Assembly: GCF_006345805.1 (NCBI RefSeq) | Contig: NC_042997.1 | Span: 37,758,001 to 37,822,000, forward strand | Origin: Octopus sinensis | Taxonomy: Eukaryota | Direction of reading: 5' to 3' | DNA: 64,000 nt | Part shown: one piece after another, positions 13,035 to 58,162 of the stretch | Layout: each line of letters begins with the position of its first letter | How positions within the stretch are numbered: the stretch's first letter is position 1 | The notes under the pieces: generated by a model | Told to the model about the DNA's origin: nothing | Databases searched by the model: none | The model's input: only the letters and a program-made list of their open reading frames with translations | Position numbers and translations under genes: made by a program

Positions 13035-13091
13035 GTGTGTGTGTGTGTGTGTGCATATATAGTGATATATATATATATATATATATATACA

Positions 13092-13464
13092 TACTCTTTT
13101 ACTCTTTTACTTGTTTCAGTCATTTGACTGTGACCATGCTGGAGCACGGCCTTTAGTCGAGCAAATCGACCCCAGGACCATTTCTTTGTAAGCCTAGTAC
13201 TTATTCTATCGGTCTCTGTTACCGAACCGCTAAGTTACGTGGATGTAAGCACACCAACATCGATTGTCAAGCGGAAACAAAACAAAACACACACAAACAT
13301 ATACACACACGTACATATAAATATACATATATACGACGGGCTTCTTTCAGTTTCCGCCTACCAAATCCACTCACAAGACTTTGGTCGGCCCGAGTCTATA
13401 GGAGAAGACACTTGTCCAAGGTGCCACGCGGTTGGTAAGTAGGCTACTTACCACACAGCCACTC
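13092..13464 (-). mobile_element. tRNA-derived SINE, family B (CORE-like)
   Basis: Reverse complement of the family head GAGTGGCTGTGTGGTAAG, CORE-like GCACCTTGG.CAAGTGTCTT and (GTAAAAGA)n tail. Internal deletion in the tRNA head. Confidence 0.88.
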
Positions 13465-15371
13465 ATATATACGTGTGAGGGGGGTGCGCGCGCATGTGTG
13501 TGTGCATATATATATATAAGGTGCTTTTATGAGTGTGAATGTTTGATATGATCCAGTAGTATACATACAACGTGTATACACACAAGCAGGTATGTATGTC
13601 TCTAATCTTATTGTTTTTTATCTGTCCTTTATCTTTTATCTTAGTGTTATTTTTTATTATTTATCATCCTTGTCATCACGGCAAATAGGCTAACTCATTA
13701 AGTAACCCCATCTATTTTATCAAGTAAATGGTGCCTACGACTAGTATGTGATTCTTCTTCTTCTTCCTCCATTCTCTAAAGGAGTGGAGAGATTTATTAC
13801 CATGTATATTTAACAGCAAAATACCATTCTCCAATTCCCCCTCTGTACTGGCAGATGAGAGAGTCAATATTATTCTATACTCTTTGTGTGAAATATCCTA
13901 ACCGTTAAAATTTATTTTAATTTTATATTCACCCGAAGAAAACAGTGTTTTTTTTACATGATGTAAAATCGCAGAAATAAAGTATGATAAATAATAAAAA
14001 TAACAGTAAAATAAAAAGTATGAATGAAATTAGCATACAATGATCATCAATAAAAGACACGTCTGAAGCAATTGTAGTAGCCTCAGCCCATTTGTGTTAT
14101 ATTACATCACAAAGGAACCGTTGTATAGTCAATCCATATTGGGCCGCGGATTGCATGCCGAAGTATACGCTTGTAAGATCTTACGTATACATTAAGTGTA
14201 TTTGGTCTGTGCTTGCAAATATATGCTTAACCGGAAGAACAAATACGTATATATTTTCGTAAGTACATGGGTATCCGTAAACACTGTTGGTATACGGGTA
14301 TGCTGTCCTCGACTCTACTTTAGAGTTTTTGTGATTTGTTATTAACATTTATCGATTCTATTGGATTCTGCATATAATTATATGTGTGCATGTGTGTGTG
14401 TGTATGTTTTTTGCATATGTATATATTTGAGTGTATACGTGTGTGCGTCCCCGCGCAAAGGACAAATCCTCCCAAAAGTTATTTATTATGGATAAAAAAA
14501 GTATATAATTTCTACTATTCATTGGACACTTCTACAACTGTATCTACAATATGAAATCATTCTTTCAGTAGAGAATAATCGATGTTGATCACCAGAAACT
14601 TTTTTTGGCACTACACTGATACATTATATTCAATGAACACAAAAAAGGCATGGGTAAATTTTAGGTTAATTACAAATTATATAAATTAGAGCTATGTTGA
14701 TTTCCATTGATAATAAATATACACATTTATTTTATTGATGCGGGAAACTGCTTTAAGTGACATCTTTAAATTGCATCAATAACAAATGTCAAAATTAATA
14801 AACTATTTACTTTAAAAACAAATGGAAAAAAACTAGTGAGCGACATGTTCCTCCTTTGGAAACACCTCATTTATACTCATTATAAGAAAATAGTTTTCTG
14901 TGAAATATCTTATTGCCACTGAGATTTCTGTAGTTCATCATTGTCTACATACGAGCCAGCAAGTAGAGACCCCTTGATGTCCTTTAATCTTATTTCGTAT
15001 AGACTTATTAGTCTCAAAGCTGGGTTTTTTATGCTTTTTACAGTATTCGTGTGCTTGTTCGTAAGTATTGGCCTTTCTACCAAAGAACGCATACATTTAT
15101 AATATTGTGGCCATCTTAGGTAAGCATAATACTTAAACATTTTCAATACAATATTTGAAGAAATTCACTTCAGCCTGATTTTGCATATAATTTTATAGTA
15201 ATCTATAACATGCAGGAATTTCTAGTTACTTTTTTTCACCAAATTTCAACTTTCAGCGAGTTAAATTTTGAAAGCAGAAATTTGCAAAGACGTCTGGTTA
15301 AAAACTTAGTAATATTATATTTGTAAAAATTTTGAAAAGCATATTCTTATAATTTATACTCATTAACTTTA

Positions 15372-15720
15372 TAGATGCAGGAGTGGCTGGGTGGTAAGTA
15401 GCTTGCTTACCAACCACATGGTTCCGGGTTCAGTCCCACTGCGTGGCACCTTGGGCAAGTGTCTTCTACTATAGCTTCGGGTCGACCAAAGCCTTGTGAA
15501 AGAAGCCCGTCGTATATATGTATATATATATATGTATGTGTGTGCGTGAGTTTGTGTGTCTGTGTTTTCCCCCAACATCGCTTGACAACCGATGGTGGTG
15601 AGTTTGCGTCCCCCTAACTTAGCTGATCGGCAAAACAAACCGATAGAATATGTACTAGGCTTACAAAGAATAAGTCCTGGGGTCAAATTACTGAAAAAAG
15701 TAAAAAGAGTAAAAAGAATA
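15372..15720 (+). mobile_element. SINE family B
   Basis: A-box TGGCTGGGTGGTAAG, B-box GGTTCAGTCCC, CORE-like CCTTGGGCAAGTGTCTT and GTAAAAAGAG tail. Confidence 0.9.
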
Positions 15721-15843
15721 TTATATGCTGTTACTGTTTATATTATGCTTGCGTGCGGGTTCGTTTACATATGAGGATATATAACGTATCATTACTTAGC
15801 ATTTCCATTGTTAAGATGTGAAATTCCATGTTTTAATATAACA

Positions 15844-16257
15844 TACTCATTTACTCTTTTACTTGTTTCAGTCATTTGACTGCGGCCATGCTGGAGCACC
15901 ACCCTTAGTCGGGCAAATCGACCCCGGAACTTATTCTTTGTAAGCCCAGTACTTATTCTATCGGTCTCTTTTTGCCGAACCATTAAGTTACGGGGACGTA
16001 AACACACTAGCATCGGTTATCAAGCAATGCTAGGGGAACAAACACAGACACACAAACATATACACACACATACATATAAATATACATATATACGACGGGA
16101 TTCTTTCAGTTTCTGTCTACCAAATCCACTCACAAGGCTTTGGTCGACCCGAGGCTAGAATAGAAGACACTTGCCCAAGATGCCACGCAGTGGGACTGAA
16201 CCCGGAACCATGTGGTTGGTAAGCAAGCTACTTACCACACAGCCACTCCTGCGCCTA
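15844..16257 (-). mobile_element. SINE family B, full length
   Basis: Full reverse-complement copy from TAGGCGCAGGAGTGGCT to the GTAAAAGAG tail. Confidence 0.92.
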
Positions 16258-16549
16258 TGAGTGTATAATTAAACGTTGGAACTCTCATCTCATTTATATT
16301 CTGTATTTTCAGGGCTAAAATATTTTTGAGGTGTTAGCGTTTGAAGTATTGAAATATATAAAATGATATTTCTTCTAAAGAAACTTAGATGAACAAATTC
16401 TCTCTTATCGTCATTTTTGCAAATTTAGAGTCTGTACAAAAACGGTGCTTTCATACACCCCCACCCCCACACACACAAACACAAACACACACAAACCCAA
16501 ACACACGCACAAACACACACATGTGTATGTGTGTATATATAAACACATT

Positions 16550-16762
16550 CAATATGTGACCGCGTGTGTATCGTTGGCGATTTTCTTTCTCCGTCTTCCA
16601 TTCCTGGACCATTCCTTTTTCTATGTTTCTGACGAAGAGCTCCGCCCGAAACGTTAAATCCTCCTTCTTTCTTTCCTTTCCTGAGCGTACAATAACACTA
16701 TACTTCTTCCACGTCCTCGCGTTGTTGTGTTTTCTCTTTATGTTTTCATGTTTGGATTAACT
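16550..16762 (+). mobile_element. About 210-bp (TA)n-associated element with a minimal hammerhead (Penelope pLTR-like), family H1
   Basis: Homologous copies at 25822-26030 (-) and 54931-55135 (-). All abut (TA)n at the TTTGGATTAACT end. Hammerhead at 16625-16659. Confidence 0.8.
16625..16659 (+). ncRNA. Minimal type I hammerhead ribozyme motif
   Basis: GUUU CUGACGA A GAGC-UCC-GCCC GAAA C GUU|AAAU. Stem I is GUUU/AAAU. Stem III is only the palindrome ACGU, so it could form only in a dimer. Confidence 0.65.
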
Positions 16763-16824: not shown

Positions 16825-16943
16825 ATATATATTAAACTTTTAATACTTTTGATATATATTTAAAATAATATAAATGAATTAATTTTATGTATTGGCTTAA
16901 GTTTTTCATTGTTTGATTTGCCTAATAGTTGTTTTATCTCTAA

Positions 16944-16992
<49 letters not shown>

Positions 16993-17015: not shown

Positions 17016-17059
<44 letters not shown>

Positions 17060-17256
17060 TATTACATTATATAAAAGGGCTTAGTAAAATAAATTACTTT
17101 GCCGCATACTGAACTCATTAGAAATAGCAGCTAAAAAAACATTTATAAAACTATTTCTAATACTTAAAGAAAACCTCTCTCATATAGTGTTTGCTCAATT
17201 CAACTCACGGAAGTATGGGGGGTAGAGACATTAAAAAATCAGATGCAAAGGTTATT

Positions 17257-17309
17257 TGAGAACGTACGTTTCAAGATTAGTCAAACTCGACACTTCTATC
17301 ATCAGCTCA
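17257..17309 (-). ncRNA. Type I hammerhead ribozyme
   Basis: Minus strand: UGAG CUGAUGA U AGAAGUGUCGAGUUUGACUAAUCUU GAAA CGUAC GUU|CUCA. Stem I is UGAG/CUCA and stem III is the palindrome ACGUACGU. Confidence 0.8.
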
Positions 17310-17813
17310 GAACTCCCTGGTTTGGATTTGAAAACACTGAAAGTGGGAGCATACTCCTTCGGCCTCCTATCGCTTTTGAAGATCCGCTCGTAACTAACAG
17401 TGCCAATAAACCCAAATATGCAAGCGAAGAATTTCTGCTCTCCCCTTTCCACCAGCGTGGGTTAAAATCAGCAAACACTATGCTTTTTTCGGTAAAATCC
17501 GAGGCATTTAAATAGAGAGAGATGAATTATAATTTCAACAATTGAGGGTAAAATTAATTAATTAATCAATTTCACCAAGTGTTCAGTATGCAAAGGGACC
17601 ATTTAAGGCGAATTCAAATTATTACATTATATAAAAGGGCTTAGTAAAATAAATTACTTTGCCGCATACTGAACTCATTAGAAATAGCAGCTAAAAAAAC
17701 ATTATAAAACTATTTCTAATACTTAAGAAAACCTCTCTCATATAGTGTTTGCTCAATTCAACTCACGGAAGTATGGGGGGTAGAGACATTAAAAATCAGA
17801 TGCAAAGGTTATT

Positions 17814-17866
17814 TGAGAACGTACGTTTCAAGATTAGTCAAACTCGACACTTCTATCATCAGCTCA
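17814..17866 (-). ncRNA. Type I hammerhead ribozyme, identical second copy
   Basis: Same sequence as 17257-17309, offset by 557 bp. Confidence 0.8.
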
Positions 17867-18072
17867 GAACTCCCTGGTTTGGATTTGAAAACACTGAAAG
17901 TGGGAGCATACTCCTTCGGCCTCCTATCGCTATATATATATATATATATATTAAATTAGAGATAAAACAACTATTAGGCATATCAAACAATGAAAAACTT
18001 AAGCCAATACATAAAATATATATATATATAAAATATATATATATATATAAAATATATATATATTATATATAT

Positions 18073-18598: not shown

Positions 18599-18856
18599 AA
18601 CAATCGTACGCACACAAACAGATATATATATATGTGCGTGGGCATATATTTTTTTAACAACATATATATATATATAGTTGTTTAATGAGAGACGAAAGAT
18701 GGAAGACCACGAGAAGTTTTATTAATCACTACAATTGTTTCGGCCCATGCTGCGTCGATCCATCACAGGGTCTCATTAACCAAATGCATAATGAACACAG
18801 TGAAAGTGACCGTGCGTTAGCAGTAAGCTACTTGGGGTAAAACATTCGTTTTATTA

Positions 18857-20162: not shown

Positions 20163-22824
20163 TATACCTTCAGAACTGTTTTTACGGCTTTTATATATAA
20201 CATGCCTTAAAAGAAGAATGCAAATTTGATTTTTTTGCAAAAATTTTAATGGACTTTAAATTAGAATATATACATATGACATATGATCAATTTTATAGGA
20301 AAATGTGTGTATGCACACACATATACACAATACATACACACTCGTTCATATATATGTATATATATATAAGTATATATATATGTATATATGTATGCATGTA
20401 TGCATGTGTATACATACATATACATAGATATTTACATACATAATTATATAACTATATACCTGTAATATATTTATATATGAACACATATTATTATACATAT
20501 ATTTATACACATACATATATGTGTCTGTCTGCGGGAGCGTGTACAAATATATGTATGTATGTATGCCTGTATGTATGTCGATATATGCGTATGTATGCAT
20601 GTAAGTATGCATGTATGTACATATGCTGGTATGTAGGTAGGTAGCTAGCTAGCTAGGTATGTACTTATGTGTGTATGTACGTATGTATGTATGTATGTTT
20701 TTATGTATGTATGTATGTATGTATTTATGCTTATAAACGCATACTTAAACGGCAATGCATTCTTAGGGATGGAAATATTTCCTGTTGAGGAAAAATGCGA
20801 AAGAAATTGCTACGTAGCATTAATAGCCTATTAATCATAATTTAATGCTATTTATTTCTACTATTTCCAACGTCTGTTTTAATAATTCTAATATTGTATA
20901 TAGTAACTATTGATTCAATATAAATAGGGAATATTATTTTGTTTGCTTCATTGCCTCTTAAAAGGTATATTTACACACATACAAAAATGAAGATACATAA
21001 ATATGTTCGCTCATCCTATAAAGCTAACAAGATGTTAGATTTGAAGAAAAATATTTATCAGCACACACGACATTGATTTATATGAATTAGCATTTAACGT
21101 ATCGATTTTCCCTTCTGCCTGATACTGTAGAGATATATTTTATATCAGAAAGCGACGTAGACGAACAAAAGCTGACTTAATAGTATAATTCATCATACTT
21201 GTTCAACAAACACAAAGTAACAACACCTTATGAAAGGAAAACGACTGTAGAATCATTACATCTTATCCTTCTCAAAGTACGAGGTGTATACGGACAGAGA
21301 AATTGAAGCTGGATAATGAAACCCATAGAGAAAACGAATTTTAAAGATATTTTGCCAATAAACTGGGAATATAAATCTCAACCCAGCAAAGGTCTATTCG
21401 ATTTGAGATCTTGAGATATGTGCTGTAACTGCGACTGAGAAATGTTCTGTAACTATGCGGCTGATGTTAGTTAGCTTTCAAAGTCATATTGAGTGGTTTG
21501 AGTATCGCTGAATGCATATATTGATGTAGTTATTCAAAACACATGCACGTGATACATTCTTGTTTCACTTTCTTATTCATCAACAATATTAAATGTGTTT
21601 ATTATAGTATCCGGTGTTGGTGCAGCACAGCTAAATGAACGGGAATGTGAGAATATTAGTGGTTTTGGCATAATATTATTACTACCGCTGTCTGAGACAG
21701 TTCTCCGTCAGTATTTTACCTTGGCTATATATTTTACAGCGAAAAATATCTACTGATTAATTGTTTCAAAATTTTAATATTGAGAAGCCTAAATGACCTA
21801 ATTTGTAAACGATTTATATCATAATTGAATATAATACCTAATTACACATTGAGCTTAAGATCTAAAGAAATTTTTTTGTTAAATATTTTGTAAAATCATC
21901 TAAAGTAAATATTCTATATGTGCCAGTCTACATACTTACAAATATTGAAAGTGGATCGTAAATTTTAAGATCAAGAGTTAGTCGTAAGTATTTTGGAAAA
22001 TCTTTCATTACAATTTCTAACCTTGCAATGGCAATTAATATAATAGATGCAGGGAGTGTACGAATTTGGGTGTACGAATTGCAGTTAGAAAACTTGATGA
22101 TTAAAATCGGTACCACATGGGGCTTTTTCTATATTTGGCGCCGTTAAAAGAAGAAAGGAGCATATGGAACTTTTAATGTCAGATGTCTGTGGAAACAAAC
22201 TATTTGAAAATTATTTTGACAAACGTATGTCATTTTATATATTTTTGTCTTGCTGATGCGAAAAGCTTTTACCTATTACCTAAGATTTTCTCACAAATTA
22301 AAGTTAACGATATCATTATTTGTAATTCAACGTGTTGTATGATGAAATGTTAGTACCAGGAAGGAATTATGTACTTCATCTAACAAAATACAATTGAATG
22401 TGAGAAAATAGATTTTAACAAAGGGTTCTATTCATTTTCTAGGTTTATATCGCTTGTTCGTTTATTTACCATGAAAGAAACTCTATTATAAATACCACCG
22501 TAAAGTCTGTTTTAGCAGAACATCCACGTTTAAGTGGGAATAAATATTACCACTTGGTATTAATACTGCCTCTGTCGCTAATATATCTTTTTTAACAAGT
22601 GAACTGGCTAATCGCAATACTAGTGCCTGTTCTGGTAATGATTTCCTATATATCACTAGCGAGGAGATAAGTCGCTAGCGGTCGAACATCCATCAGCGAT
22701 GAGATTAAGGAAGATCGATATGTGTCATAGTGGTCTCGGCGCTGAGGTTGGTGGTGATTTATCTCCCCGTGAGTGATATAAAGAAGCAAGCATGCATTCT
22801 GCACCAAAACCTGTATAACAGTTT

Positions 22825-23706: not shown

Positions 23707-24109
23707 GTGTGGTAAGTAGCTTGCTAACCAACCACATGGTTCCGGGTTCAGTCCCACTGCGTGGCATGTTGGGCAAGTGTCTTCTGCTATAGCCCCGGGC
23801 TGATCAATGCCTTGTGAGTGGATTTGGTAGACGGAAACTGAAAGAAGCCTGTCGTATATATGTATATATATATATATATAAGTGTGTGTGTATATATTTC
23901 TGTGTCTGTGTTTTGTCCCCCTAGCATTGCTTGACAACCGATGCTGGTGTGTTTACGTCCCCGTCACTTAGCGGTTCGGCAAAAGAGACCGATAGAATAA
24001 GTACTGGGCTTACAAAGAATAAGTGCCAGGGTCGATTTGCTCGACTAAAGGCGGTGCTCCAGCATGGCCGCAATCAAATGACTGAAACAAGTAAAAGAGT
24101 AAAAGAGTA
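23707..24109 (+). mobile_element. SINE family B
   Basis: Matches the other family B copies and ends in the GTAAAAGAGTAAAAGAG tail. Confidence 0.9.
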
Positions 24110-24929
24110 TATGATCCAGCAAAATGTAACATGATACAATAAAACAATGCTTGTAGCATATATCAGGAAAACTCTTGACGAAATAAGTGAATTAAAAAAA
24201 TTTTAAAGAAAGGTTTCGGAGGGGTGATGCATACCTTGCGCGCAAACAAGGGTAAAATATCTAATTTTATTAAAAATAATCTCAGACGAATTCATATTTC
24301 AACGAAATTACATCAAGAGTCATTTCCCTTGATTATCGTTCATGCATGTATAATAACAACAACATCAACGAAAAATAACATTTTGGTTCACCCGCCCGCC
24401 AGTTTTGAAGATAAATCAAAGCAAAATTTAACGACTTTGAGCCACTCACCCAAAGAGTATTTCTGCCAAATTTGGGGAAAATCGTTTCAGTCATTTTCCA
24501 GTACATTTGCAAATAGAAAAGCAAACAGACAAAGACGAGCGACTACACTCACACTGCTTCGCTTACTCGTGCAGGGTTAACAATGGCTTTTCACATAAGC
24601 AACGTGACCTTGTAAAGCACCTCTGCTTTGTACAACACATGCGGTTCACTAAAGCTAATACACATTTGTATATAGCTGAAGCAGTCTCAGCATTCCCAGG
24701 TGCTTATTTTTAAACTCACGCCTGTTATTTATAATGCAAATAGTTTATTTAAATGTGGCAATTAATAGTAATAGTGAAAGACAATATTCAAATTTGGGTA
24801 GAATGGTAAAATGCAATAAGAGATTTTGTGAAATATACTCAGTGGTTCCGCGGACCCCTGGGATCCCGGAAGCCCTGGAGGTCCTCAAAAGTAGAACGGA
24901 GGGGGGGCGTGAACTAAATTCAAAATGTC

Positions 24930-25331
24930 ATGTATAGCCTTATGTGATACATACGGAGTCGAGTTTCTGGGTGGTTACCCGTCCTCAGCGTGTTTTAATC
25001 ACATGCTAGTGATGAAAAGTCACTCCACTTGCAAATACTATAAACGTATGTCATTTTATATATTTTTGTCTTGCTGATGCGAAAAGCTTTTACCTATTAC
25101 CTAAGATTTTCTCACAAATTAAAGTTAACGATATCATTATTTGTAATTCAACGTGTTGTATGATGAAATGTTAGTACCAGGAAGGAATTATGTACTTCAT
25201 CTAACAAAATACAATTGAATGTATAGCCTTATGTGATACATACGGAGTCGAGTTTCTGGGTGGTAACCCGTCCTCAGCGTGTTTTAATCACATGCTAGTG
25301 ATGAAAAGTCACTCCACTTGCAAATACTATA
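24930..25331 (+). repeat. 113-bp direct duplication flanking a 181-bp copy of 22221-22401
   Basis: 24930-25042 matches 25219-25331 with 1 mismatch. 25042-25222 matches 22221-22401. Confidence 0.92.
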
Positions 25332-25450: not shown

Positions 25451-25565
25451 TATATGGGACAGTGCTACTGACGTTTATAGCACAATGAAGACACCTTTTC
25501 CAGCTGGTTAACGACATATATGTGTATGTATATATATATAGATAGATAGATATATATACACATGT

Positions 25566-25620
<55 letters not shown>

Positions 25621-25738
25621 TGCATGTGTATATATATCTATCTATCTCTATATATATATACATACACATATATGTCGTTAACCAGCTGGAAAAGGTGTCT
25701 TCATTGTGCTATAAACGTCAGTAGCACTGTCCCATATA
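25451..25738. repeat. Fold-back inverted repeat (arms about 115 bp) centred on (TA)n
   Basis: 25451-25564 is the reverse complement of 25623-25738. The ORF track shows [22 protein letters not shown] on both strands. Confidence 0.92.
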
Positions 25739-25821
<83 letters not shown>

Positions 25822-25826
<5 letters not shown>

Positions 25827-26030
25827 ATCCAAACATGAACAAAGAGAAAACACAACAACGCGAGGACGTGGAACAAGTATAGTGTAATTGGGCGATTACG
25901 AAAGGAAAGAAAGAAGGAAGTTTTAATGTTTCGAGCGGAGCTCTTCGTCAGTGATGTAGAAAAAAGGAAAAGTCCAAGGAAGGGAAGACAGAGAAAGAAA
26001 ATCGCCAACGACACACACGCGGTCACATAT
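25822..26030 (-). mobile_element. Family H1 element with a hammerhead core (25921-25955)
   Basis: Minus strand CUGACGA A GAGC-UCC-GCUC GAAA CAUU. Homologous to 16550-16762. Confidence 0.8.
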
Positions 26031-26100
26031 TGAAATGAGTGGAAAGAATGTGTGAAGAAAAAGTTCTTTCAAAGACAGGAGAGTGCAATATATATATATA

Positions 26101-29782: not shown

Positions 29783-30008
29783 GCGAGCTGGCAGAAACGT
29801 TAGCACGCCGGGCGAAATGCTTAGCGGTATTTCGTCTGCGTTACGTTGTGAGTTCAAATTCCGCCGAGGTCGACTTTGTCTTTCATCCTTTCGGGGTCGA
29901 TAAATTAAGTACCAGTTACGCACTGGGGTCGATGTAATCGACTTAATACCTATGTCTGTCCTTGTTTGTCCCCTCTGTGTTTAGCCCCTTGTGGGTAATA
30001 AAGAAATA
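29783..30008 (+). mobile_element. SINE family A
   Basis: Nearly identical to 3363-3591. Confidence 0.9.
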
Positions 30009-33000
30009 AGTATTGTAAATATTTAGAAACTTGTATATTTTTGACTCTGTAAGGTGAAATTATAGAAATGTTAAGTGAGAGTTAAAGAATGGGGAAAAAA
30101 GCCTGGTCAATAGTCACAGGAATGCTCTTTTTTGAAACGTCTAATCACCTCAACCAACAGCCTGTGAATTAGCGTTTTGTATTGAGATCAGCAACAACGG
30201 TACAGTGTGCATGACAAGAAAAGGAAAAGGAGAAATATTGTCAAGTGAGTTTGTGTATAATGTTACGCTACCTTCAATCTGAGAAACGAAAACTTTGTAG
30301 TACCAATAAAAGAGAAAGACAGAAACGACTTGTCTGCCATCAGTGGAGTTGTAATCAGTTAAAGAGTTAGTATTTGCCAAACAGTAGAATAGGATGCTTA
30401 TCTCTGAATCTACATCTAATGGTTTTCAGATAACGGTACTTGAAAAATTGATATGAATAATACAAATTTCGCCTCTTCTACAATGAACTTTATTCTTATA
30501 ATGTTCTAGTATCTGAGGGATGTTGAAACTGACGTATATTTTAAGAAGCCCTCAAAAAGTTTTAATTCAGGTAAGGATTTAAGATCAAATAATCAAATGT
30601 AATGATTCAAAATTAAATGTTCCGAATCATCGCGAAATTATAGACTACACTCGAAGAACATACCTGTTAGAAGTGAAAGGGCTTCAGAAGGAATCGACTT
30701 CACATATCTGGATAATACTAGTGATCTACACAAATTAATTAGTCATGAGACATTCATTAGGAAATATTTATTATAAAGAGAAAATTGAACAAAGTTTTGC
30801 GTTTCATGTGCAATCACATAAAATCTCATGTTACTTAGATATATCAAAAACACCATTTCGTACATATTTGCATAAATTCTTATCTTAATTTTATATTTTG
30901 CATGTTTGTAGTGAATTTAAAGGAGAAATCAATATCGTATTCATCTGTTACTCACACGTCTCATTAAGAGGATCCATATTTAAAATATGAACAATTTCAC
31001 TCTTGAAAAATACGTTATCTAGTTAATTGATTAACTCATAAAACCGGCATTGAATATTCGAGATTCTCAATAAGTTACTCAATGGAATTTATGCTGCTTT
31101 GATTGCTTCCCCTAGGTTTTGTTCTCAACATCACTTTTGATTGTATTTGTTGACATTTATTGCAAAGCAATGATACAAAACAGACATTGAATCATTAATT
31201 TACGTAGGCGATATTTCTGATACGAAGGTGTGGGGAATAACTTTATTTCATTGGAAATTTTATATATTGTATTTACTCTTTATATATCCATGCATCCATC
31301 TATCAATATATACATACATACACACATAGTTGTGTGTTTGATAAATTGTCATTATCATTTTATTATTTAATCAAATATGTTTTGTTTAATATTTCCTTGA
31401 TTTACTTTTCAAATATCATAGCTTCAAAGAGGCATGATTTCGAATATCGACGCCATTATATTAGTTAATTTTGATGTCACTAACTCATGTAATATTTCGC
31501 ATTAGGATTTTCAAGATATGTATAAAACAAGAAAGAAAGTGTGTATACTTACAAGAATGTTATGCATTTATATTGTAATATATTATGAGCTATAAATGTA
31601 AGCGTGAAATTATCCAATCCTAAAACTAAAGCACACCAGTTTTTGTTAAACTGATTCTTTAAGACGCGATATAGAGCAATGAATAAAACGTCCTTCCTGT
31701 AGACAAAATATAGTAGACGTTGCTCGTGCTATTGAATCATTTTTAGTTTATTTGACCACATGATACGAGCTGCATTTTAATCATCGTCACGTATTGTCAA
31801 TATACACGCTCTTGAATTAATATTTCTACATATTATGATTCTATATACCTACGCACACTGAAATTTTTCTGAAATTGAAATCTCATTGTGATTTACATTT
31901 CCTTACTCCAAGAAATGTATTTGTCATTGTTTTCGCCGAATTTGAAACTCAACTGCAAATTCTGTAAAGTGATGTTTCTATGAAAAATATTAACAGAGAA
32001 GAGATTCTTCACCAGCAAACCAAAACTCATTTATTGTTTGTCGAATCTGCTATAAAGAACAGCTAAGTATATATTCCAAATTCTAGACCATCGTAAATAA
32101 GCAATCAGAAATAAGACACTTGATGAAGATCGGGCATAAAGATTTTAGCATGGTTGGGTATTTGTAAACACTGACACAACTGAAAAATAGAGGTAATGGT
32201 CGGATAAAATTATAGTATCATTAACAACCGATCTCTAACATTATACATAAATTCTTACATTACGTTATAACATAAAATACAACTTAATTGTATTAAGAAT
32301 GAAATACGTTTACTGAGAAATATTAGAAGAAAACTTATATATTTAAACAATAAATATCTTTCAAGTAGTGTTGCCGATGTAATTCAAAACATAATTCTAA
32401 TAGGATTGAAAATGCTGCTGTCATTGATGGGAACATCGGCTTGTTAGACAGTGCTTCTGAGCACTAACAAGTGAGGTGCGATGAAGGCGTATTCACGAAT
32501 ATTACCAGAAGAATGGATGCAAAAGGAAATTAAGAAGCTCACGTTAAAATGTAAAGAAAATGTACTATTCTGTGATATACTATTATGAAACCATTAAATT
32601 GAAATATTTCGGTTGGTTTTACTTAGTTCATTCCTTCTCTGTCACCGGACAGCTGACAATTAGCTAACTTTGTTGGTGATATTAATATCATGTCAATAAA
32701 AATGTGTCCACATGTTCTAATACCATTAAGAGATGTTAATGAGGTATATCGTCTAGAAAAAATATAGTTAGTGTGCCGAGGTGTTACTACGTTAGATATG
32801 TTGTTGACGATACCAATCGAAACGTCCCAACGTTTACTTACGATTATCCTTAGAAATTCCACATTATATAGTTACATCATAGCAAGCAGCGTATGTGAGC
32901 TCTCTCGGAGTCGAATCAACAATAACGTATCAGACATCAGTTTAAGATACTTAACTCACCGTAAGTTTATTAGTATCCCTGCATCTAACTACTCAATACA

Positions 33001-36770: not shown

Positions 36771-37224
36771 CATGTGTGTGAATGCTTATGTATAGATGAA
36801 AGCAGAAACGAAAAGACAAATGGTTTGGCAAGGCTTAACAAGGACATGTAACTTAGCTATATAATAAAAAGTTATACATTGTCCCTAGTACCTGTTTCTA
36901 GAATTCCAGCTATTGGAACACCGTGTCGTGCATCCACTGTTACGTTTGTTTAACCTAAACCTCTCCTTCATCGGAGCGGATGAGGTTAAATAGATGTATC
37001 ACTGGGTGGATATTACTCATCAATGATATTGTGATTTAATTTTTTCGAGAAAAAGAAGAGAAATCCAATTAAAAATTCATTTGTAATAGGGATTCGTTCG
37101 GTGAACCCACGAACAAATGAAGAAAATCGGTAATGTCCACGAGTAGAATCGAAACACGGAGAATGGTTCGATTATAATCGATGGCCAAGGAAAATGGATG
37201 TTAGCAGTTCCAATGCTGGCTAAT

Positions 37225-38214
37225 GGACATTGCCGATGTTCTTCTAGCAACTCGAAACCCAATTTATTAATGGTTTCAACGTTGTGAGCGACCGTATGTG
37301 AACATGCATTGTAGTGCAACAATAACTTGACAATAGACCGCCTCGTTTGGTGTAACTTGCTGGCATAAGTTTGTTGGCCAACATTTTATTGCATCTTACA
37401 CTGATGGCTGTAGACTTTCTTTCCAAATAATGGTCCAGTTTGCATCCTCAAAGACGTTTAGTATTACAATTTCTGTGAAAGTTTGAATCTCGAACTACTT
37501 TTCCGCTAGCGATTCCGGATGTTTCCACGCCGCACTCTACTTTTTGGATTCTGGCTCAAAGCGATGGACCCAGGCCTCCTCTCCTGTAAATATTCTCTCA
37601 AAAAATGCTTGCCTTCATATTTGTAGTGGTCGAGTAAGCGTCTACAAATCGCCACACAATTGCTCTTAAGCGCTTTTGGCAGCTCTCTTCATTTCCATCT
37701 CACACAGACTTTAGGGAATGAAGCATGTCGTGCATGATTTCGTATGCAGACTAGGACTAATTTCCAGAGAACATGCCACCTTATCAATGGCAATTTGTCG
37801 GTTCGCCAGAAACATCTTTTGAACTTGTTGAATCTTTACTTTTGTGGTGGAGGTTGCTGGATGTCCTGCTCCCTATTCGAGCTTCACAACTGTCCTGCCA
37901 GTTTTAAAGTTGTCGATCCATTCACACACTTCTACGCAACAGAGCGCTGTCCGCGTATTGTACTGAAAGCCTGCTATAAATGCAAGCCCCAAACACACAT
38001 TCAGACCAGAGAAATCGGTTCACCCATCTCTGATCTTCCTTTAAGCAGGCTGAAATCGGAACAGGGATGGTTACCTGTAAGACACACACACTAAAAACGG
38101 AGTGATGAAGGATAAACTTCAGTTACGTAACCACAAGTGTACCGCCTTTAAGGTAATGCAGCCGACCTAAAGAACATTTTGGAGAAACTGCAGGTAATTG
38201 TTTACTTCCCCTTG
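37225..38214 (-). mobile_element. Mariner transposon remnant
   Basis: The minus strand gives LLHYNACSHT (LLHDNARPHT-like) and a degenerate TGDETW-like segment near 37570-37590. TIR-like end TA|CAAGGGGAAGTAAACAATTAC at 38214. Confidence 0.75.
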
Positions 38215-38216
38215 TA

Positions 38217-39420
38217 TATAGGTACGTACGTATGTATGTATGCACGTATGTATGCATATATGTATGTATGTATATATGTATGTACGTATGTATATATGTA
38301 TGTTTGTATGTATGTATGTATGCATGTATGTATGTATTTTATGTATGTATGCATGTATGTATGTATGTATGTATGTATGCATGTGTGTATGTATGTATGT
38401 ATGTATGTATGTATGCATGTATGTATGTATGTATGTATGCATGTATGTATGTATGTATTATGTATGCATGTATGTATGTATGTATGTTTGTATGTATAAT
38501 ATGTTTGTATGTATGTATGTATGTATGCATGTATGTATGTATGCATGTATGTATGTATGTATGTATGCATGCATGCATATGTATGCATGCATGTACGTAC
38601 GTATGTATGTATGTATGTATGTATGCATGTATGTATGTATGTATGCATGCATGTATGTATGCATATATGCATGCATACATACATGCATGTATGTATGCAT
38701 GCATACATGTATGTATGCATGCATGTACGTACGTATGTATGTATGTATGTATGTATGCATATATTTATGTATGTATGCATGTATGTATGTATGTATGTAT
38801 GTATGCATGTGTGTATGTATGTAGTATGTATGTATGTATGCATGTATGTATGTATGTATGTATGCATGTATGTATGTATGTATTATGTATGCATGTATGT
38901 ATGTATGTATGTTTGTATGTATATATGTTTGTATGTATGTATGTATGTATGCATGTATGTATGTATGCATGTATGTATGTATGTATGTATGCATGCATGC
39001 ATGTATGTATGCATGCATGTACGTACGTATGTATGTATGTATGTATGTATGCATGTATGTATGTATGTATGCATGCATGTATGTATGCATATATGCATGC
39101 ATACATACATGCATGTATGTATGCATGCATACATGTATGTATGCATGCATGTACGTACGTATGTATGTATGTATGTATGTATGCATATATTTATGTATGT
39201 ATGCATGTATGTATGTATGCATGTATGTATGTATGTATGTATGCATGTATGTATGTATGTATGTGTGTATGTATGCATGTGTGTTTGTATATATGTATAT
39301 ACGTAAGTATGTATGTATGTTTGTATGTATGTATGATTGTATGTATGCATGTATGTATGTATGTATTATGTATGTAGGTATGTATGAATGAATGCATGCA
39401 TATATGTATGTGTTTGCGTG
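38217..39420. repeat. Compound (TATG)n/(CATG) satellite with a higher-order duplication of about 426 bp
   Basis: The variant pattern repeats at an offset of about 426 bp. ORF-track entries 38339-38704 and 38765-39130 are near-identical. Confidence 0.9.
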
Positions 39421-40865: not shown

Positions 40866-41003
40866 TTTTGTGTGTCTTGTTGAGAAAGACAATATTAGTT
40901 TATGTCCATTGGTTAGTTTACGCGGTCTCTGTTTGTAGAGTATATGATGACCAGCCTGCTATATCTATGCTACGACTAAATGATGATAATTTGAGTATGT
41001 TAT

Positions 41004-41391
41004 CTTTTTCATTTACTTGTTTCAGTTATTTGACTGCGGCCATGGTGGAGCACAGCTTTTAGTCGAAGAAATCGACCCCAGGACTTATTCTTTGTAAAAC
41101 CTAATACTTATTCTATCGGTCGTTTTTGCCGAGCCGCAAATTACACGGACATAAGCACGCCAGCATCGGTTGCCCAGCGATGGTGAGGAGACAAGCACAA
41201 ACACACAAATACATGCACACATACATATACGACGGGCTTCTTTCAGTTTCCGTCTACCAAATCCACTGAGAAGGCTTCGGTCGGCTCGAGGCTATATTAG
41301 AAGACACTTGCACAAGTTGCCACGCAGTGGGACCGAAAACAGAACTGTGTGGTTGAGAAGGAAGTCTGTTACCACAGCCACTCCTGCGCCT
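41004..41391 (-). mobile_element. SINE family B, diverged
   Basis: Reverse-complement match to the family B head, CORE-like block and tail. Confidence 0.85.
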
Positions 41392-42590: not shown

Positions 42591-43361
42591 ATTTGCGGTG
42601 AATTAACTGTCACAAAAATGAAAATAATACTGACATCTCATTTTAATAGAAATATTTACCAAAATTACATAAAAATAACTTGAATTATTAATGAATAAAT
42701 TTATACAATAAATTGCTTTCAACCACGACCTCCAGACGACTTCAGAATCTCCTGCAACTCTTCTGGACGGTCTCCTTGTTTTAAGTTGGTGAATCCTCCC
42801 AAATGCGCCCCACACACACAATAATCAAGGGCGTTACAGTCTGGGGAGTTAGATGGCAAGATGTTAGGGGTGATGTGGTCGCAGAAATTAACAGCCATGA
42901 CTAGGTTCTCCTGTTTGTGCAGCATGGTGCAGAGACCTGTTGCCAGACATAGAGTCTCCCAACAACCACCTTCTTGATCCAGAACAGCACTACCACCTCC
43001 ATGTGGGAAGAAGAACAGAGGCACAACGTCGCCATCACTAGCGATCATTCTAAGGACCATGACATTGACTGAATGTTTAATTTTTATCACTCTCGATACA
43101 TGTCCTCAGATTGAACAGTTCTCAGACTGACACCCAAACAATCTGAAATGTTCACATTGGAGCTTCCGGCGCAAATTCCAAGCAGTACAGCATGTCGTTT
43201 CCAAATTTCTAGTGGAGTGAATTGCGTCTTGATGATGTTTCTCTCATAGACGGTACCCAACTAACCTTACTACACTGTGGAGTCGACATTATCAAAATCA
43301 ATGTGCATGCGTGAAATTAAAAAAATATATATAATGGCAACAATTTACCCATCGCACCTTG
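42590..43361 (-). mobile_element. Tc1/mariner-superfamily deletion derivative
   Basis: The minus strand gives KHSVNVMVLRMIASDGDVVPLFFFPHG and PNILPSNSPDCNALDY (WPP.SPD.NPLDY-like). Degenerate TIRs at both ends. Confidence 0.8.
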
Positions 43362-43403: not shown

Positions 43404-43917
43404 CTCGCAATATCACGGATGCAGTTGTACATCGTTAACCAGTAAAGGAGATGTCCTCCTGGCGTTAAAAAATCGTAGTAAAGTCGTTTGAAATGGGCAG
43501 CCATGTTGAAGTAGCTATGAAAGATACTTGTTAGTACAACTACTGCGTTGATCTCTGAGAGTGATTTTAGAACTAACACTTTTGCTTGTTGTAATATCAA
43601 AGACTGTATGTGGCTCGAAATTATATATACATTGCGAGCTATTGCCATCACTATCAGACGAGGGGTCCAGTACTGAAGAGAGGCAAAAATAGCCCGAAAC
43701 TAGGCTGGTTCCGTCGCTAGAAGGTGGTAGAGATACGGTCCTCTGCTCGCCATATCTCAGTTGCAGCTGTGCATCGTTAACCAGCTAGAGGAAATGTCCT
43801 ATTGGGGTTACAAAATCGCAGTAGATCGAACAGCTATGTTGAAGCGGCTACGAACATTAGTTGTTAGTACAACTACTGCGTTGATTCCTTAGAGAGATTA
43901 TAGAACGTGCATTTTTG

Positions 43918-48283: not shown

Positions 48284-49140
48284 GCTGTTGTTATAGTTGT
48301 TGTTGCTGTTGCTATTGTTATTAGTATTAATATTACTGTTGAAAAAGCGGCCGAGCTGTCAGAATCGTTAGCAATCTGGACGAAAAGTTTTGCGGCATTT
48401 CGCCCGTCATTATGTTCTGAGTTCAAATTCCGCCGAGGTCGAGTTTACCTTTCATTCTTTCAGGGTCAATAAAATAAGTACCAGTTAAATACTGCAGTCG
48501 ATGTAATGACTTATTCCCACCCCACCCCGCCAAGCTGACCTTGTCGCAAAAATTTGAAATTATTATTATTATTATTGTTGCTGTTACTATTGAAAAGACG
48601 GCGGGCGAAATGCATAGCTTTATTTAGTCTGGAGCTACGTCCTGAGTTCAAATTCCGCCGAGATCGACTTTGCCTTTCAGCTTTGCCTTTCAACCCTAAA
48701 TTAAATACCAGTGAAACACTGGAGTCGATATAATCGACCCCAAAATTGCAGGCTTTGTGCCTTTTGTAAAAGGGATTGTTATTATTACTGAAGGCATCCA
48801 GATGGAAGAGTCGTTACCACTCCGGACAAAATTCTTAACATCATTTCGTCTGTTTTTACGTTCTGATATCAAATTTCATCATATAGGGGTCTATAAGATA
48901 AATATAAAGAATTATTATTATTATTATTGTGGCTGAATATTTAGCAAACCAGACAAAATGCTTAAAGGTATTCCTTCTGACCTTATGCTGTGAGTTCAAA
49001 TTCCACCGAGGTCGAGTGCATCTTTCATCCTTTCGACGTATTTAAAATATAGTGCCAATCACATACCAGGATCGATCTAATCGACTTCCACCTATCCTCA
49101 AAAACTACTGGCTCTGTATCAAAATGTGAAACTATTTTTA
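48226..49140 (+). mobile_element. Cluster of four degenerate family A-type SINEs separated by (ATT)n tracts
   Basis: GAGTTCAAATTCC.CCGAGGTCGA blocks near 48419, 48644 and 48992, plus a weaker copy near 48860. Each copy is preceded by (ATT)n. Confidence 0.75.
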
Positions 49141-50625: not shown

Positions 50626-50663
<38 letters not shown>

Positions 50664-51048
50664 CAAACGAATATAGACACAATCTTCCCCTCACAATCCA
50701 AATATCATTTGGACAATGCAACAGATATGAGGCTTCTTGATTTAGTAAATAAAAAATGATGCATTGATGCTTTATGCACACACACACATACACACACACA
50801 CATACACACACACACATACACACACACACATACAGGTATGTATATGCATATGTGTGTGTGGGTGAGTGTGAGTGTGTGTGTATGTGTGTCATCATATATA
50901 TGCATACATATATATGTATATAGATATGCGTATATATTTACCTCATTATATATATTGTATATTACAAGTGTGTATGTATATGTATATGTATATATATATG
51001 AAAAAACAAGTAAAAAATAGAAAATGCTAAAATAATTTTATAGTGAAC

Positions 51049-51094
51049 ATTTCAGTACCGGTTTCGGTCATTTTGAGACCTTTTCAACTGTAAC
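51049..51094 (-). ncRNA. Type I hammerhead ribozyme, U3-A8 core variant
   Basis: Minus strand: GUUACAG UUGAAAA GGUC-UCAAAAU-GACC GAAA CCG GUA|CUGAAAU. Stem II is perfect and stem III is the palindrome ACCGGU. Confidence 0.75.
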
Positions 51095-51250
51095 GATTAA
51101 ATAATTAAATTTAGAAAAATTAGAAGAAAAGTTTTTTTAAAAGAATATTTCTATAGTAGTGTTCAGATTTAAGTGGCATTCTGCCTTTCTCTGACTCCCT
51201 TGTTTGCACTTGTGTGTTCGAGGTATATATATACGTTCATTACATATCAT

Positions 51251-51285
<35 letters not shown>

Positions 51286-51650
51286 TGTTCAAACGAATAT
51301 AGACACAATCTTCCCCTCACAATCCAAATATCATTTGGACAATGCAACAGATATGAGGCTTCTTGATTTAGTAAATAAAAAATGATGCATTGATGCTTTA
51401 TGCACACACACACATACACACACACACACACATACAGGTATGTATATGCATATGTGTGTGTGGGTGAGTGTGAGTGTGTGTGTATGTGTGTCATCATATA
51501 TATGCATACATATATATGTATATAGATATGCGTATATATTTACCTCATTATATATATTGTATATTACAAGTGTGTATGTATATGTATATGTATATATATA
51601 TGAAAAAACAAGTAAAAAATAGAAAATGCTAAAATAATTTTATAGTGAAC

Positions 51651-51696
51651 ATTTCAGTACCGGTTTCGGTCATTTTGAGACCTTTTCAACTGTAAC
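51651..51696 (-). ncRNA. Second copy of the U3-A8 hammerhead
   Basis: Identical to 51049-51094, offset by 602 bp. Confidence 0.75.
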
Positions 51697-51847
51697 GATT
51701 AAATAATTAAATTTAGAAAAATTAGAAGAAAAGTTTTTTTAAAAGAATATTTCTATAGTAGTGTTCAGATTTAAGTGGCATTCTGCCTTTCTCTGACTCC
51801 CTTGTTTGCACTTGTGTGTTCGAGGTATATATATACGTTCATTACAT

Positions 51848-51882
<35 letters not shown>

Positions 51883-54930: not shown

Positions 54931-54935
<5 letters not shown>

Positions 54936-55135
54936 ATCCAAACAAGAAAACAAAAAGACACAACGCAAGGTCGTGGAACAAATAAAGTATTATTGGACGC
55001 TTAGGAAAGAAGGGAAGAAGGGGGGGTTGACGTTTCGAGCGGAGCCCTTTGTCGGAAACATAAGAGAAGGAAAGATCCCGAGAAGGGAAGACAGAGGGAA
55101 AAAAATCGCTAGTGATACAGACGAGGTCACATACT
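54931..55135 (-). mobile_element. Family H1 element with a mutated hammerhead core
   Basis: Minus strand GUUU CCGACAA A GGGC-UCC-GCUC GAAA CGUC (55059-55029). Homologous to 16550-16762. Confidence 0.75.
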
Positions 55136-55192
55136 AAAAGACATTTATATGTATATATATATATATACATTTATATGTATATATATATATAC

Positions 55193-55268
<76 letters not shown>

Positions 55269-57934
55269 GTATATTTCTATTATGTTATCATGTATGAAAT
55301 TTGTAGTCAGGTAAATTTTAAAATTTGGTATCTGCTCATTTTGCGCCATTACTATTGACAATCTTTATCTTTTGTTAGATAGCTGACCCATATATTTCTT
55401 TATTCTAATTTATTTTGCTCTGTATAAAGTATTTATAAATAGTTTTTTTTACCTATTTATGTTTAGAGACTAGCTTAAGGTGATCTGCTCTACGCGCAAG
55501 TGAAGGTGTGGTTGTTACTTTCTGTTGCTTCCTTTCTGTTTCTTAAATCTTGCCTTGATTTTCAAAATTTGGAACCCATTTTCCGCGCTTAAATTAGAAA
55601 TCCGTTTCCACTTTACCATGTTGAAAATTTGATTGAAGTCGGGCAAAAGTTGTCCAGTCTAGATCCTCAAGTGTCCCCACTTTTACCGCTAAGCAACCAC
55701 TGTAGCGCCCCAAATCGAGGAAGACAGGCTGATATCCGAAAGACAGAAACGACAAACACTTGTCAAAGTCTGGGTTTTGTTGCCCTTGTAACCACAGTTT
55801 TTGAGATAGGGGTTTCTAACCTAGTCCGGTCGCTTCCTCGCCTCTTTTCACATGTTCTGTCTAACGAAAATATGTTATTAGTAGGCTTAGAATGTTGTGG
55901 ATGTCAGGAATAGCGTACCTTCAATATGTTAGTTCAGCTGTTTTTGATTTGTGTTGCAGTTCGTCAAGAAGGGAATGATTTCTGAGGTGCTTAATATGGA
56001 GAATATTTTTCCCTTCATTTTTTAGCTCTAGGTTTCTTTAGTTATTTCTTTTGCTTTTGTTTAGCAAGTGCTGTCTGAGAACTACTATTCGATATTCGAA
56101 GGCTGTCAGCATTGATACAGAATATGTACTGTCTTCGTCTTTTCTGAGATAGAGCTTGTCAATATAAGTGTCTATGGAAGGTTACAGTTGAATTCCAGAC
56201 CATGTAGATTTTAGTGTTTCTTTTCTGAGTTTCCTCTACAGACCAGCCTAGTATCTGTAGAGCTACTGCAAATACATTGTGGGATATTGTCTCGCTGTAA
56301 AAAGAAAGCTCCGGCCACCATACTTTTGTAAGTTTGATATGATATTTTGAAAGCACAGTATCTTTTCTCAATGCACCTTCGTATATATTTTCAACAAGCC
56401 CTTGGTATTTATTGCATTATTTGTGTGGAACAGGAGATATAGAAATGCCGCTGATGCACAAGTTCTGGGAGACTAATTCTTCTCGTTCAACCATCAAATA
56501 CGAACACTTCTATTTGGCTGAATTCCATTACTATATCAGCTAAAATTATTACTACTACCAACTGATTTACAGTTTTGTAAACAATTTGAGCCTAGCTCTT
56601 TTGGCCATACGTACGTATGTATGTAGGTTTGTATGTATGTATGTATTTATCTATGTATGTATGTTTGTATGTATGTATGTATGTATGTATGTATGCATGT
56701 ATGTATGTATGTATGAATGTATAAATGTATGTATGTGTGTGTATGTATGCATCTACGTATATTTAAGTTTGTTTGCATGTATATAAGGAGAATCGGGAGC
56801 ATTATATGCATTAATTTTTGCCTTTTAATTAAATGATTGTGCAATGTTTTATATTTCTAACAAATTGTCTGATTTGTGGAGAAGGCTGTGAAATATTATA
56901 CCGCAGAGAAATTTGAAGGACGGACAGCCTAAGCTATTCGGCATCATAGAGAGCCCTCATCCAAGCGAAACATTTTATTGTGCGCTGTTAGAGTGTGAGA
57001 TATGGATAATTGAACATTTGAATGAACAAATTTTACAATTCGATGGTAACAGTGTTTTCAGTAACATACGTGTTGTTTTATCTATGCTTTTATTCAGTAG
57101 TAGGGGGAGTGACAACTATTATGATTTGATGAAAATCTATAAATTTGGCATATGAATATATCGAAATATCAGTATGTAACTCTATGTATCCATACATATG
57201 TAGGTTTATATGTATAGATCTACTTATGCATAAATATTAATGTGTATGTGTCTGTGTGCGCATGTATGCGCCCGTGTCTATGTGTGAATGTATGCATATA
57301 AATGTATGATTACTTGTTGTTGTGCGAATGTGTGTTTGTTTGTGCCTGATCTTCCGTGAAACATCAATACTGTCTTGTCATAGATGTTTAATCAGTGTTC
57401 GAGGCTATAAAAGAAAATTTAAAATGTGTCATTCTCTCATGAATTATTAAAACAATCCGGAGTAGCTGAGTGAGAAAAACAGTGCAACAATTTCGATAGA
57501 AAAGTTTCAGTAGTCATATCACAATTGGGTCACCTATTAATATTCGAGATTTTCTCAAGTGTGAGGCTAAAAACAAAAACAAAAACAAAAAAAAAACAAA
57601 TGAAAGTAAAACCATGATAAGAAATATGGTAGACCGTTTCTTTAACTTCAACGTTAAATTATAATGTTTTTAAAGCAGCGAAATAACAAAACCATTACCA
57701 CGCATACCACGGTATTTAAAGCAGTTCTTTATGTCCTCAATTCACATGCCACTGAGGTTGATGTTAGCTTTCGTCTTTTTGTAGACTATAAACGAAGAAT
57801 CAGTCAAGCACTGAAGCCGATATAATTGACTAAATTCATCCCCCTCCCCCCACCCAAATCCAGGCCTTGTGCCTCGAGTAGAAAAAATGTTGTCGAACAA
57901 ATTATTATTATTATCATTATTACTATTATTAATG

Positions 57935-58162
57935 CAGCGAGCTGGCAGAACCGTTAGCGCGCTGGACGAAATGCTTAGCATTATTTCATTCGTTGCTACG
58001 TTCTGAGTTCAAATTTCACCGAGGTCGGCTTTGCTTTTCATCACTTCGGGGTCGATAAATTAAGTAACCGGTGAAGCACTGGATTCGATGTAATTGAAAA
58101 TTCCGCGCCCACAAATTTCCTGTCTAGTGCCTATAGTAGAAATTATTATTATTATTATTATT
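57935..58162 (+). mobile_element. Family A-type SINE with (ATT)n tail; a more degenerate copy lies at about 57680-57895
   Basis: GCGAGCTGGCAGAACCGTTAG, GAGTTCAAATTTCACCGAGGTC and CGGGGTCGATAAATTAAGTA. Confidence 0.8.

What the first reader, a model, noticed from the sequence alone, without database searches (positions are those of the whole stretch)
51049..51696. Tandem hammerheads with a compensated U3-A8 catalytic core
The core is UUGAAAA instead of CUGANGA. C3U and G8A together keep the 3-8 Watson-Crick pair that hammerhead catalysis needs, which argues for selection on ribozyme function rather than decay. Stem II is perfect, and stem III (ACCGGU) is likely stable only in a dimer. The 602-bp duplication supplies a second copy in cis.
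Basis: partly seen in the sequence, partly recalled or inferred. Interest (0 to 1): 0.7.

Follow-up and report, generated by a model that had tools for sequence, protein, structure and literature searches.

The report
Retroelement hammerhead relic, locally duplicated
Two identical copies of a small hammerhead-ribozyme motif with an already published core variant (U3-A8) lie 602 bases apart in microsatellite-rich animal DNA; they are likely the leftover end of a Penelope-type retroelement copied by an ordinary local duplication, and are predicted to cut RNA poorly if at all.

Summary
The motif is real. Two identical type I hammerheads lie on the minus strand (51048-51095, 51650-51697): core UUGAAAA, perfect 4-bp stem II, palindrome ACCGGU, 7-of-8-pair stem I. 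The strict descriptor found 0 hits in 907 shuffled windows.

U3-A8 is not new. It is published for about 1,300 Schistosoma Penelope hammerheads, one with the same UUGAAAA core, and for other natural hammerheads. A toy model favours inheritance from a U3-A8 family over a chance double mutation, but no family member could be fetched. That would show past selection on the mobile element, not at this locus.

The motif sits in a 224-bp island flanked by (TA)n, likely a 5'-truncated retroelement end. The duplication starts and ends in (TA)n, carries host microsatellites, and resembles other near-identical duplicates here.

In cis the complete double hammerhead formed in 0 of 4 folds.

Verdict: new member of a known kind, low interest.

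The parts
51048..51095 (-). Hammerhead motif, copy 1 (type I). Stem I 5' strand 51088-51095; core U3-A9 51081-51087; stem II 51066-51080; GAAA 51062-51065; palindrome ACCGGU 51057-51062; A17 at 51056; predicted cut between 51056 and 51055; stem I 3' strand 51048-51055
51650..51697 (-). Hammerhead motif, copy 2, identical to copy 1 (core 51683-51689, A17 at 51658)
51000..51223 (-). 224-bp island free of simple repeats that carries copy 1; (TA)n on both sides; U-rich tail reaching (TA)n 56 nt after the cut site; likely a 5'-truncated retroelement 3' end (inferred)
51602..51825 (-). Identical 224-bp island carrying copy 2
50627..51280 (.). Duplication unit 1, from (TA)n array to (TA)n array; island plus microsatellite-rich flank; longer (CA)n array
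51252..51881 (.). Duplication unit 2; 0 substitutions in 562 columns against unit 1, (CA)n array 24 nt shorter; about 37% simple repeats against 15% for the window

Best explanation
Two identical type I hammerhead motifs with a U3-A8 core and a palindromic helix III lie in a tandem duplication bounded by (TA)n arrays, and they are likely one 5'-truncated 3' end of a Penelope-type retroelement, inherited from a U3-A8 family and later copied with its flank. Shown: the motif, the 224-bp island between (TA)n runs, the duplication and its boundaries. Inferred mechanism: in the parent element two hammerheads would pair through ACCGGU, each core borrowing the partner's cleavage strand, to cut the retroelement RNA slowly. 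A truncated copy inserted into a (TA)n run. Slippage or unequal exchange between flanking (TA)n arrays (or an assembly join of two alleles) then doubled about 600 bp. The copy here is predicted to be weak or silent: A17 can pair with U3 and extend stem I over the cut site, and no transcript is known.
For: Motif beyond chance. Palindromic 15.2-16.2/loop 3, G10.1-C11.1 and U-rich/AU-rich flanks match the published PLE hammerhead consensus; U3-A8 is published in about 1,300 S. mansoni hits, and 2 of 56 representative rows carry it, one as UUGAAAAA (PMC4209133). Truncated PLEs leave single 3' hammerheads, and related PLE clades show a microsatellite insertion bias (PMC8557442). The window holds a PLE endonuclease relic at 11729-12043 (hits to RT + GIY-YIG proteins, best E 5.7e-19) and 3 copies of a C3-G8-type hammerhead repeat that end in (TA)n 96-107 nt downstream. 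Dimer of 50-mers: -24.9 kcal/mol as a double hammerhead against 2 x -9.8 for monomers. U3-A17 closes at a further -2.2 kcal/mol, with P 0.76 in the one cis fold where stem I forms; the C3-G17 analogue is a proposed trap in minimal hammerheads (PMC3884650). Toy model: likelihood ratio 233-915 for family U3-A8 over double decay, posterior 0.54-0.998 by prior.
Against: No PLE coding relic next to the island: tblastn of 150 PLE-like proteins and a profile of their C-termini found nothing significant there; the upstream stop-free frame had no hit among 2049 candidates. The extra base between A9 and G10.1, present in 54 of 56 published rows, is absent, and a 4-bp stem II with a CAAAA loop resembles canonical retrozyme-type hammerheads. 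No other copy of the island lies in the window, so the family consensus is unknown. (TA)4 lies within 60 nt downstream of 8% of random positions, so the (TA)n end is weak evidence. G17 hammerheads with tertiary contacts do cleave, so the A17 trap may not silence it.
Confidence: 0.62

Rival explanations
1. The carrier is a non-LTR retrozyme or satellite-like element with a canonical type I hammerhead, and the 224-bp island is a stray monomer.
For: 4-bp helix II, no base between A9 and G10.1, 2-bp helix III with a 2-nt palindromic loop, and a CAAAA loop aligned to HH9's CAAAAA. 224 bp and 29% GC fall in the published monomer range of 150-450 bp, GC below 50%.
Against: The tandem unit is 602-626 bp and 37% simple repeat. 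The island folds no better than shuffles (z -0.4 linear, -0.5 circular). Helix I aligns to HH9 with a 4-nt gap, so the loop 1-loop 2 contact is doubtful.
Confidence: 0.17
2. This is a decayed C3-G8 hammerhead in which C3U plus G8A (or C3U plus loss of G8 from a CUGAAGAA core) happened by chance.
For: G8A alone is seen in the decayed copy at 55055 (CCGACAA). The missing 9.1 base allows the one-deletion route. All 3 copies of the neighbouring C3-G8 family carry lesions.
Against: The rest of the motif is nearly intact (one stem I mismatch), which makes a paired double hit unlikely: likelihood ratio 233-915 against it in a toy model. U3-A8 families are published.
Confidence: 0.13
3. The duplication was retained because it builds a working cis double hammerhead, cutting a host transcript or releasing a 602-nt circle.
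For: Inter-copy helix III is predicted with P 0.93, 0.98 and 0.52 in 3 of 4 transcript windows. Dimeric constructs cleave better than monomers in published systems.
Against: P falls to 0.04 in the window spanning the whole duplication; both stems I formed in 0 of 4 windows, one stem I in 1 of 4, there with U3-A17 paired. Zero substitutions between copies leaves no time signal for selection. Other near-identical duplicates without the motif exist. No host gene found: 0 of 150 ORFs reach a Pfam cut-off. PLE hammerheads are slow even as dimers.
Confidence: 0.04
4. The second copy is an assembly artefact (two alleles joined through (TA)n arrays); the genome holds one copy. Compatible with the best explanation of the motif itself.
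For: Copies differ only in microsatellite length and both junctions lie in (TA)n.
Against: Recent true duplications look the same; no reads were available.
Confidence: 0.25
5. The motif is a chance look-alike, perhaps a diverged piece of other repeat DNA such as 43110-43155.
For: Below Rfam gathering score; fold z only -1.19; a 46-nt 76% match at 43110-43155.
Against: 0 hits in 907 shuffles; the 43 kb match has E 0.15-0.36, lacks the stems and does not extend.
Confidence: 0.02

Closest known systems
Minimal hammerheads of Penelope-like elements, U3-A8 families of Schistosoma mansoni (Cervera and De la Pena 2014, PMC4209133; read: main text parts 1-2 of 4, supplement parts 1-2 of 3)
   Same: Type I, palindromic helix III needing a dimer, G10.1-C11.1, U3-A8 core (row S. 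mansoni(4) reads UUGAAAAA), AU-rich flanks, mostly solitary copies.
   Different: No base between A9 and G10.1 (as in only 2 of 56 rows, M. japonicus and Saccoglossus(2), which also have longer palindromes and A17); helix II 4 bp against 7-8 bp typical of S. mansoni; A17 combined with U3 (0 of 3 published U3 rows; 6 of 53 C3 rows have A17, my count from the figure text); no ORF attached.
Canonical metazoan type I hammerheads / non-LTR retrozymes (PMC7229834; passages read) and Rfam Hammerhead_HH9 RF02275
   Same: 4-bp helix II, short palindromic helix III, CAG/CUG at the base of helix I, A-rich loop 2.
   Different: Score 19.7 against cut-off 52; helix I spacing off by 4 nt in the HH9 alignment; repeat unit 602-626 bp of microsatellite-rich DNA rather than 150-450-bp monomers; core U3-A8.
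Natural U3-A8 hammerheads of Perreault et al. 2011 (PMC3088659; passages read)
   Same: C3-G8 covarying to U3-A8 in several natural hammerheads, stated to be active in vitro by earlier work.
   Different: The paper suggests that tertiary contacts offset variant cores; this motif has none shown, and lacks a monomeric helix III.

Membership tests
Hammerhead ribozyme (type I) | Core U4 G5 A6 A9, G12 A13 A14, A15.1-U16.1, H17 | tested here: met
   H17 = A
Hammerhead ribozyme (type I) | Watson-Crick pair possible between positions 3 and 8 | tested here: met
   U3-A8; a competing U3-A17 pair is predicted
Hammerhead ribozyme (type I) | Helices I and II, G10.1-C11.1 | tested here: met
   7 of 8 and 4 of 4 pairs
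Hammerhead ribozyme (type I) | Helix III | tested here: inconclusive
   Not possible in a monomer; 6 bp in a dimer
Hammerhead ribozyme (type I) | Self-cleavage after H17 | not testable with these tools
   needs an assay
Rfam Hammerhead_HH9 (RF02275) | Gathering score 52 bits | tested here: not met
   19.7 bits; not filed under this family
PLE minimal hammerhead | Palindromic 15.2-16.2 and loop 3 | tested here: met
   ACCGGU
PLE minimal hammerhead | U-rich 5' and AU-rich 3' flanks | tested here: met
PLE minimal hammerhead | Unpaired base between A9 and G10.1 | tested here: not met
   absent; also absent in 2 of 56 published rows
PLE minimal hammerhead | Lies in the pLTR/3' end of an RT + GIY-YIG element | tested here: inconclusive
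   no coding relic adjacent; truncated copies need not have one; works like one, membership not shown
PLE minimal hammerhead | Multi-copy genomic family with covarying stems | not testable with these tools
   no eukaryotic genome collection; none elsewhere in the window; 0 of 79 GTDB hits relevant
Non-LTR retrozyme | Tandem monomers of 150-450 bp | tested here: not met
   unit 602-626 bp, two copies
Non-LTR retrozyme | Loop 1-loop 2 tertiary nucleotides | tested here: inconclusive
   CAAAA loop and upstream GUU align to HH9, spacing differs by 4 nt
Non-LTR retrozyme | Expressed as circular RNA | not testable with these tools
   no RNA data

The most novel reading that the evidence does not exclude
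A retroelement family, probably cephalopod, uses a U3-A8 core together with an A17 cut site, so that U3 switches between a locking pair with A17 and the catalytic pair with A8; and a microsatellite-driven duplication has just assembled two such ribozymes in cis into a new circle-releasing unit, a retrozyme caught at birth from host DNA.
Probability: 0.04. Interest if true: 0.65.

Novelty: new member of a known kind. Interest (0 to 1): 0.2.

Why it matters
As it stands it adds one more animal example to a published class of retroelement hammerheads with a published core covariation. I found no report of a U3-A8 hammerhead in a cephalopod, but the library misses subscription papers and repeat databases. 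The one useful new point is the U3/A17 combination: it predicts a self-locking pair analogous to C3-G17 and gives a cheap test of whether positions 3 and 17 constrain each other in natural hammerheads. If the duplication did release a circular RNA, it would show how retrozymes can arise from retroelement debris.

Tried and rejected
Family consensus from public DNA: the one GTDB scan gave 79 loci, all bacterial; 0 of 79 read as a C3-G8 or U3-A8 core with a proper cut site and stem I, and none matches the flanks, so they are chance. Phage and plasmid blastn gave only short AT-rich matches, best E 0.2 and 0.001 among the rows shown, none covering the motif.

A protein search of a frame across the motif could not be run because the frame has stops. 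The stop-free frame upstream gave no hit. A word-index search with the endonuclease relic gave none of 43 candidates; the full HMMER search then found 151.

The 43110-43155 look-alike was rejected as a paralogue (E 0.15-0.36, no stems; it lies in a stretch that reads like a Tc1/mariner transposase, a recalled label). Rfam miRNA and snoRNA hits over the duplication are microsatellite hairpins below cut-off. The low energy of the 602-nt circle against shuffles (-144 against -109) comes from (CA)n/(UG)n pairing and is not taken as evidence. No tRNA; no host gene: 1 of 150 ORFs had a Pfam hit, below cut-off (150 of 151 candidate ORFs sent). The organism could not be checked. Lunse et al. 2017 and Przybilski and Hammann 2007 are not held; I saw only their titles in reference lists. 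The eLife 80360 value for the U3-A8 double mutant was not seen; only text passages and the supplement list were. My remark printed that the cis dimer is a pseudoknot was wrong; one search tests the nested form.

Full report
Setting. The window is AT-rich (26-40% GC), full of microsatellites and dispersed repeats, with no Rfam family at gathering score, no tRNA and no ORF at a Pfam cut-off. It looks like intergenic or intronic animal DNA; my guess of an octopus is recalled from the repeat content and was not verified.

Observation. On the minus strand, 51095->51048 reads CGUUACAG UUGAAAA GGUC UCAAAAU GACC GAAA CCGG UA CUGAAAUG, and an identical copy lies 602 nt away. This is a type I hammerhead: stem I 7 of 8 pairs, core U3 U4 G5 A6 A7 A8 A9, stem II 4 of 4 pairs with G10.1-C11.1, GAAA, palindrome ACCGGU, cut site after A17 (51056; 51658). 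The isolated motif folds with stems I and II. A strict descriptor gives these 2 sites and 0 hits in 907 shuffles. Rfam HH9 aligns weakly (19.7 bits, cut-off 52).

Is U3-A8 new? No. Cervera and De la Pena 2014 (PMC4209133; main text parts 1-2 of 4, supplement parts 1-2 of 3) report U3-A8 in S. mansoni Penelope hammerheads with about 1,300 hits beside about 2,000 standard ones. Of 56 representative rows, 2 are U3-A8, one reading UUGAAAAA, and 1 is U3-G8 (my count). Perreault et al. 2011 (PMC3088659; passages) report the same covariation in several natural hammerheads and cite in vitro activity. Against easy equivalence, Roberts et al. 2023 (PMC9901934; passages) state that only the G3-C8 swap rescued their ribozyme and all other double mutants in that region were low.

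Inherited or decayed? The family consensus could not be fetched: GTDB, phage and plasmid searches gave chance hits only, and the window holds no further copy. A toy model with 0-2 lesions among 25-33 other constrained positions gives a likelihood ratio of 233-915 for a U3-A8 ancestor, posterior 0.54-0.998 over priors from 0.005 to 0.39. Two cautions: the motif lacks the base between A9 and G10.1 found in 54 of 56 published rows, so loss of one base from a longer core is an alternative register; and G8A alone occurs in a decayed neighbour at 55055. Inheritance is likely. It speaks to selection during the element's mobile past, not at this locus.

Carrier. Each motif lies in a 224-bp island without simple repeats (51000-51223; 51602-51825) with (TA)n on both sides and a U-rich tail ending 56 nt after the cut site. 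The window also has a PLE endonuclease relic (11729-12043; relatives carry RVT_1 and GIY-YIG) and 3 copies of another hammerhead repeat, C3-G8 type, ending in (TA)n 96-107 nt downstream. Truncated PLEs leave solitary 3' hammerheads, and related clades favour microsatellites (PMC8557442; passages). But no coding relic adjoins this island, and the 4-bp stem II, missing 9.1 base and CAAAA loop also fit canonical retrozyme-type hammerheads. I put PLE end first and retrozyme monomer second, and do not file it formally under either.

Duplication. It runs from one (TA)n array to another (50627-51280 against 51252-51881), with 0 substitutions in 562 columns and one 24-nt (CA)n indel. About 380 bp of each unit lies outside the island, and 37% of the unit is simple repeat. 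Of 7 near-identical pairs found in the window, this is the only one with the strict motif; 17056-17374/17616-17931 is 99% identical and also touches (TA)n arrays. Such local duplicates cover 3.3% of the window. Slippage or unequal exchange at (TA)n, or an assembly join, explains it without reference to the ribozyme.

Mechanism and activity. Helix III cannot form in one copy. Two 50-mers give a double hammerhead at -24.9 kcal/mol against -9.8 per monomer, in line with the published dimer model (PMC6765202, passages). In cis the result depends on transcript ends: inter-copy helix III had P 0.93, 0.98, 0.52 and 0.04 in four windows; both stems I formed in 0 of 4, one stem I in 1 of 4. With U at position 3, A17 can pair with it and stack on stem I; this is 2.2 kcal/mol more stable in the dimer and has P 0.76 in the one cis fold with stem I. 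The equivalent C3-G17 pair is the proposed reason G17 blocks minimal hammerheads, though ribozymes with tertiary contacts tolerate it (PMC3884650; abstract and introduction passages). None of 3 published U3 rows has A17, against 6 of 53 C3 rows (too few to test). These are secondary-structure predictions and an analogy, not measurements. PLE hammerheads are slow even as dimers. I predict weak or no cleavage here.

Verdict. A real hammerhead motif of a known retroelement kind with a published core variant, doubled by an ordinary local event. Shown: motif, non-chance, island, duplication anatomy. Inferred: PLE origin, family-level U3-A8, duplication route, A17 trap. Untested: transcription, cleavage, family consensus, reality of the second copy. 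Interest 0.2.

Noticed in passing
window 11729-12043 (+): Penelope-type GIY-YIG endonuclease relic; 151 relatives at E <= 0.001, long ones with RVT_1 + GIY-YIG. No hammerhead seen downstream.
   Followed up: partly
window 16548-16762 (+), 25822-26034 (-), 54931-55139 (-): Three copies of a repeat with a C3-G8-type minimal hammerhead (core starts 16629, 25951, 55055; palindrome AACGUU), each with lesions, ending in (TA)n; likely PLE 3' ends.
   Followed up: partly
window 43673-43710 (+) and about 18730-18770 (-): Two further decayed hammerhead-like motifs with palindromes CUAG and CAAUUG after GAAA.
   Followed up: no
window 17056-17374 / 17616-17931; 24930-25042 / 25219-25331; 22221-22401 / 25042-25222: Other 99-100% identical direct duplicates without the motif; the first touches (TA)n arrays and has a 54-nt inverted pair nearby (16894-16947 / 17952-18005).
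   Followed up: partly
window 25451-25738: A 290-nt near-perfect palindrome centred on (TA)n, next to the 25822-26034 repeat end.
   Followed up: no
window 42722-43200 (-), 37080-37385 (-): Frames that read like Tc1/mariner transposase relics (recalled motifs; no Pfam hit).
   Followed up: no
window 13090-13464, 15371-15692, 15842-16258, 23707-24110, 41003-41391; and 3363-3598, 29783-30015, 48347-49087, 57934-58097: Two dispersed SINE-like repeat families, 70-97% identical between copies.
   Followed up: no
window 51234, 51836, 51882: A 13-nt word next to (TA)n is repeated at the island's 5' junction and once outside the duplication, a sign of earlier slippage at this array.
   Followed up: partly
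window 38213-39411: 1.2-kb (TGTA)n/(CATG)-type microsatellite with an internal higher-order repeat of about 426 nt.
   Followed up: no
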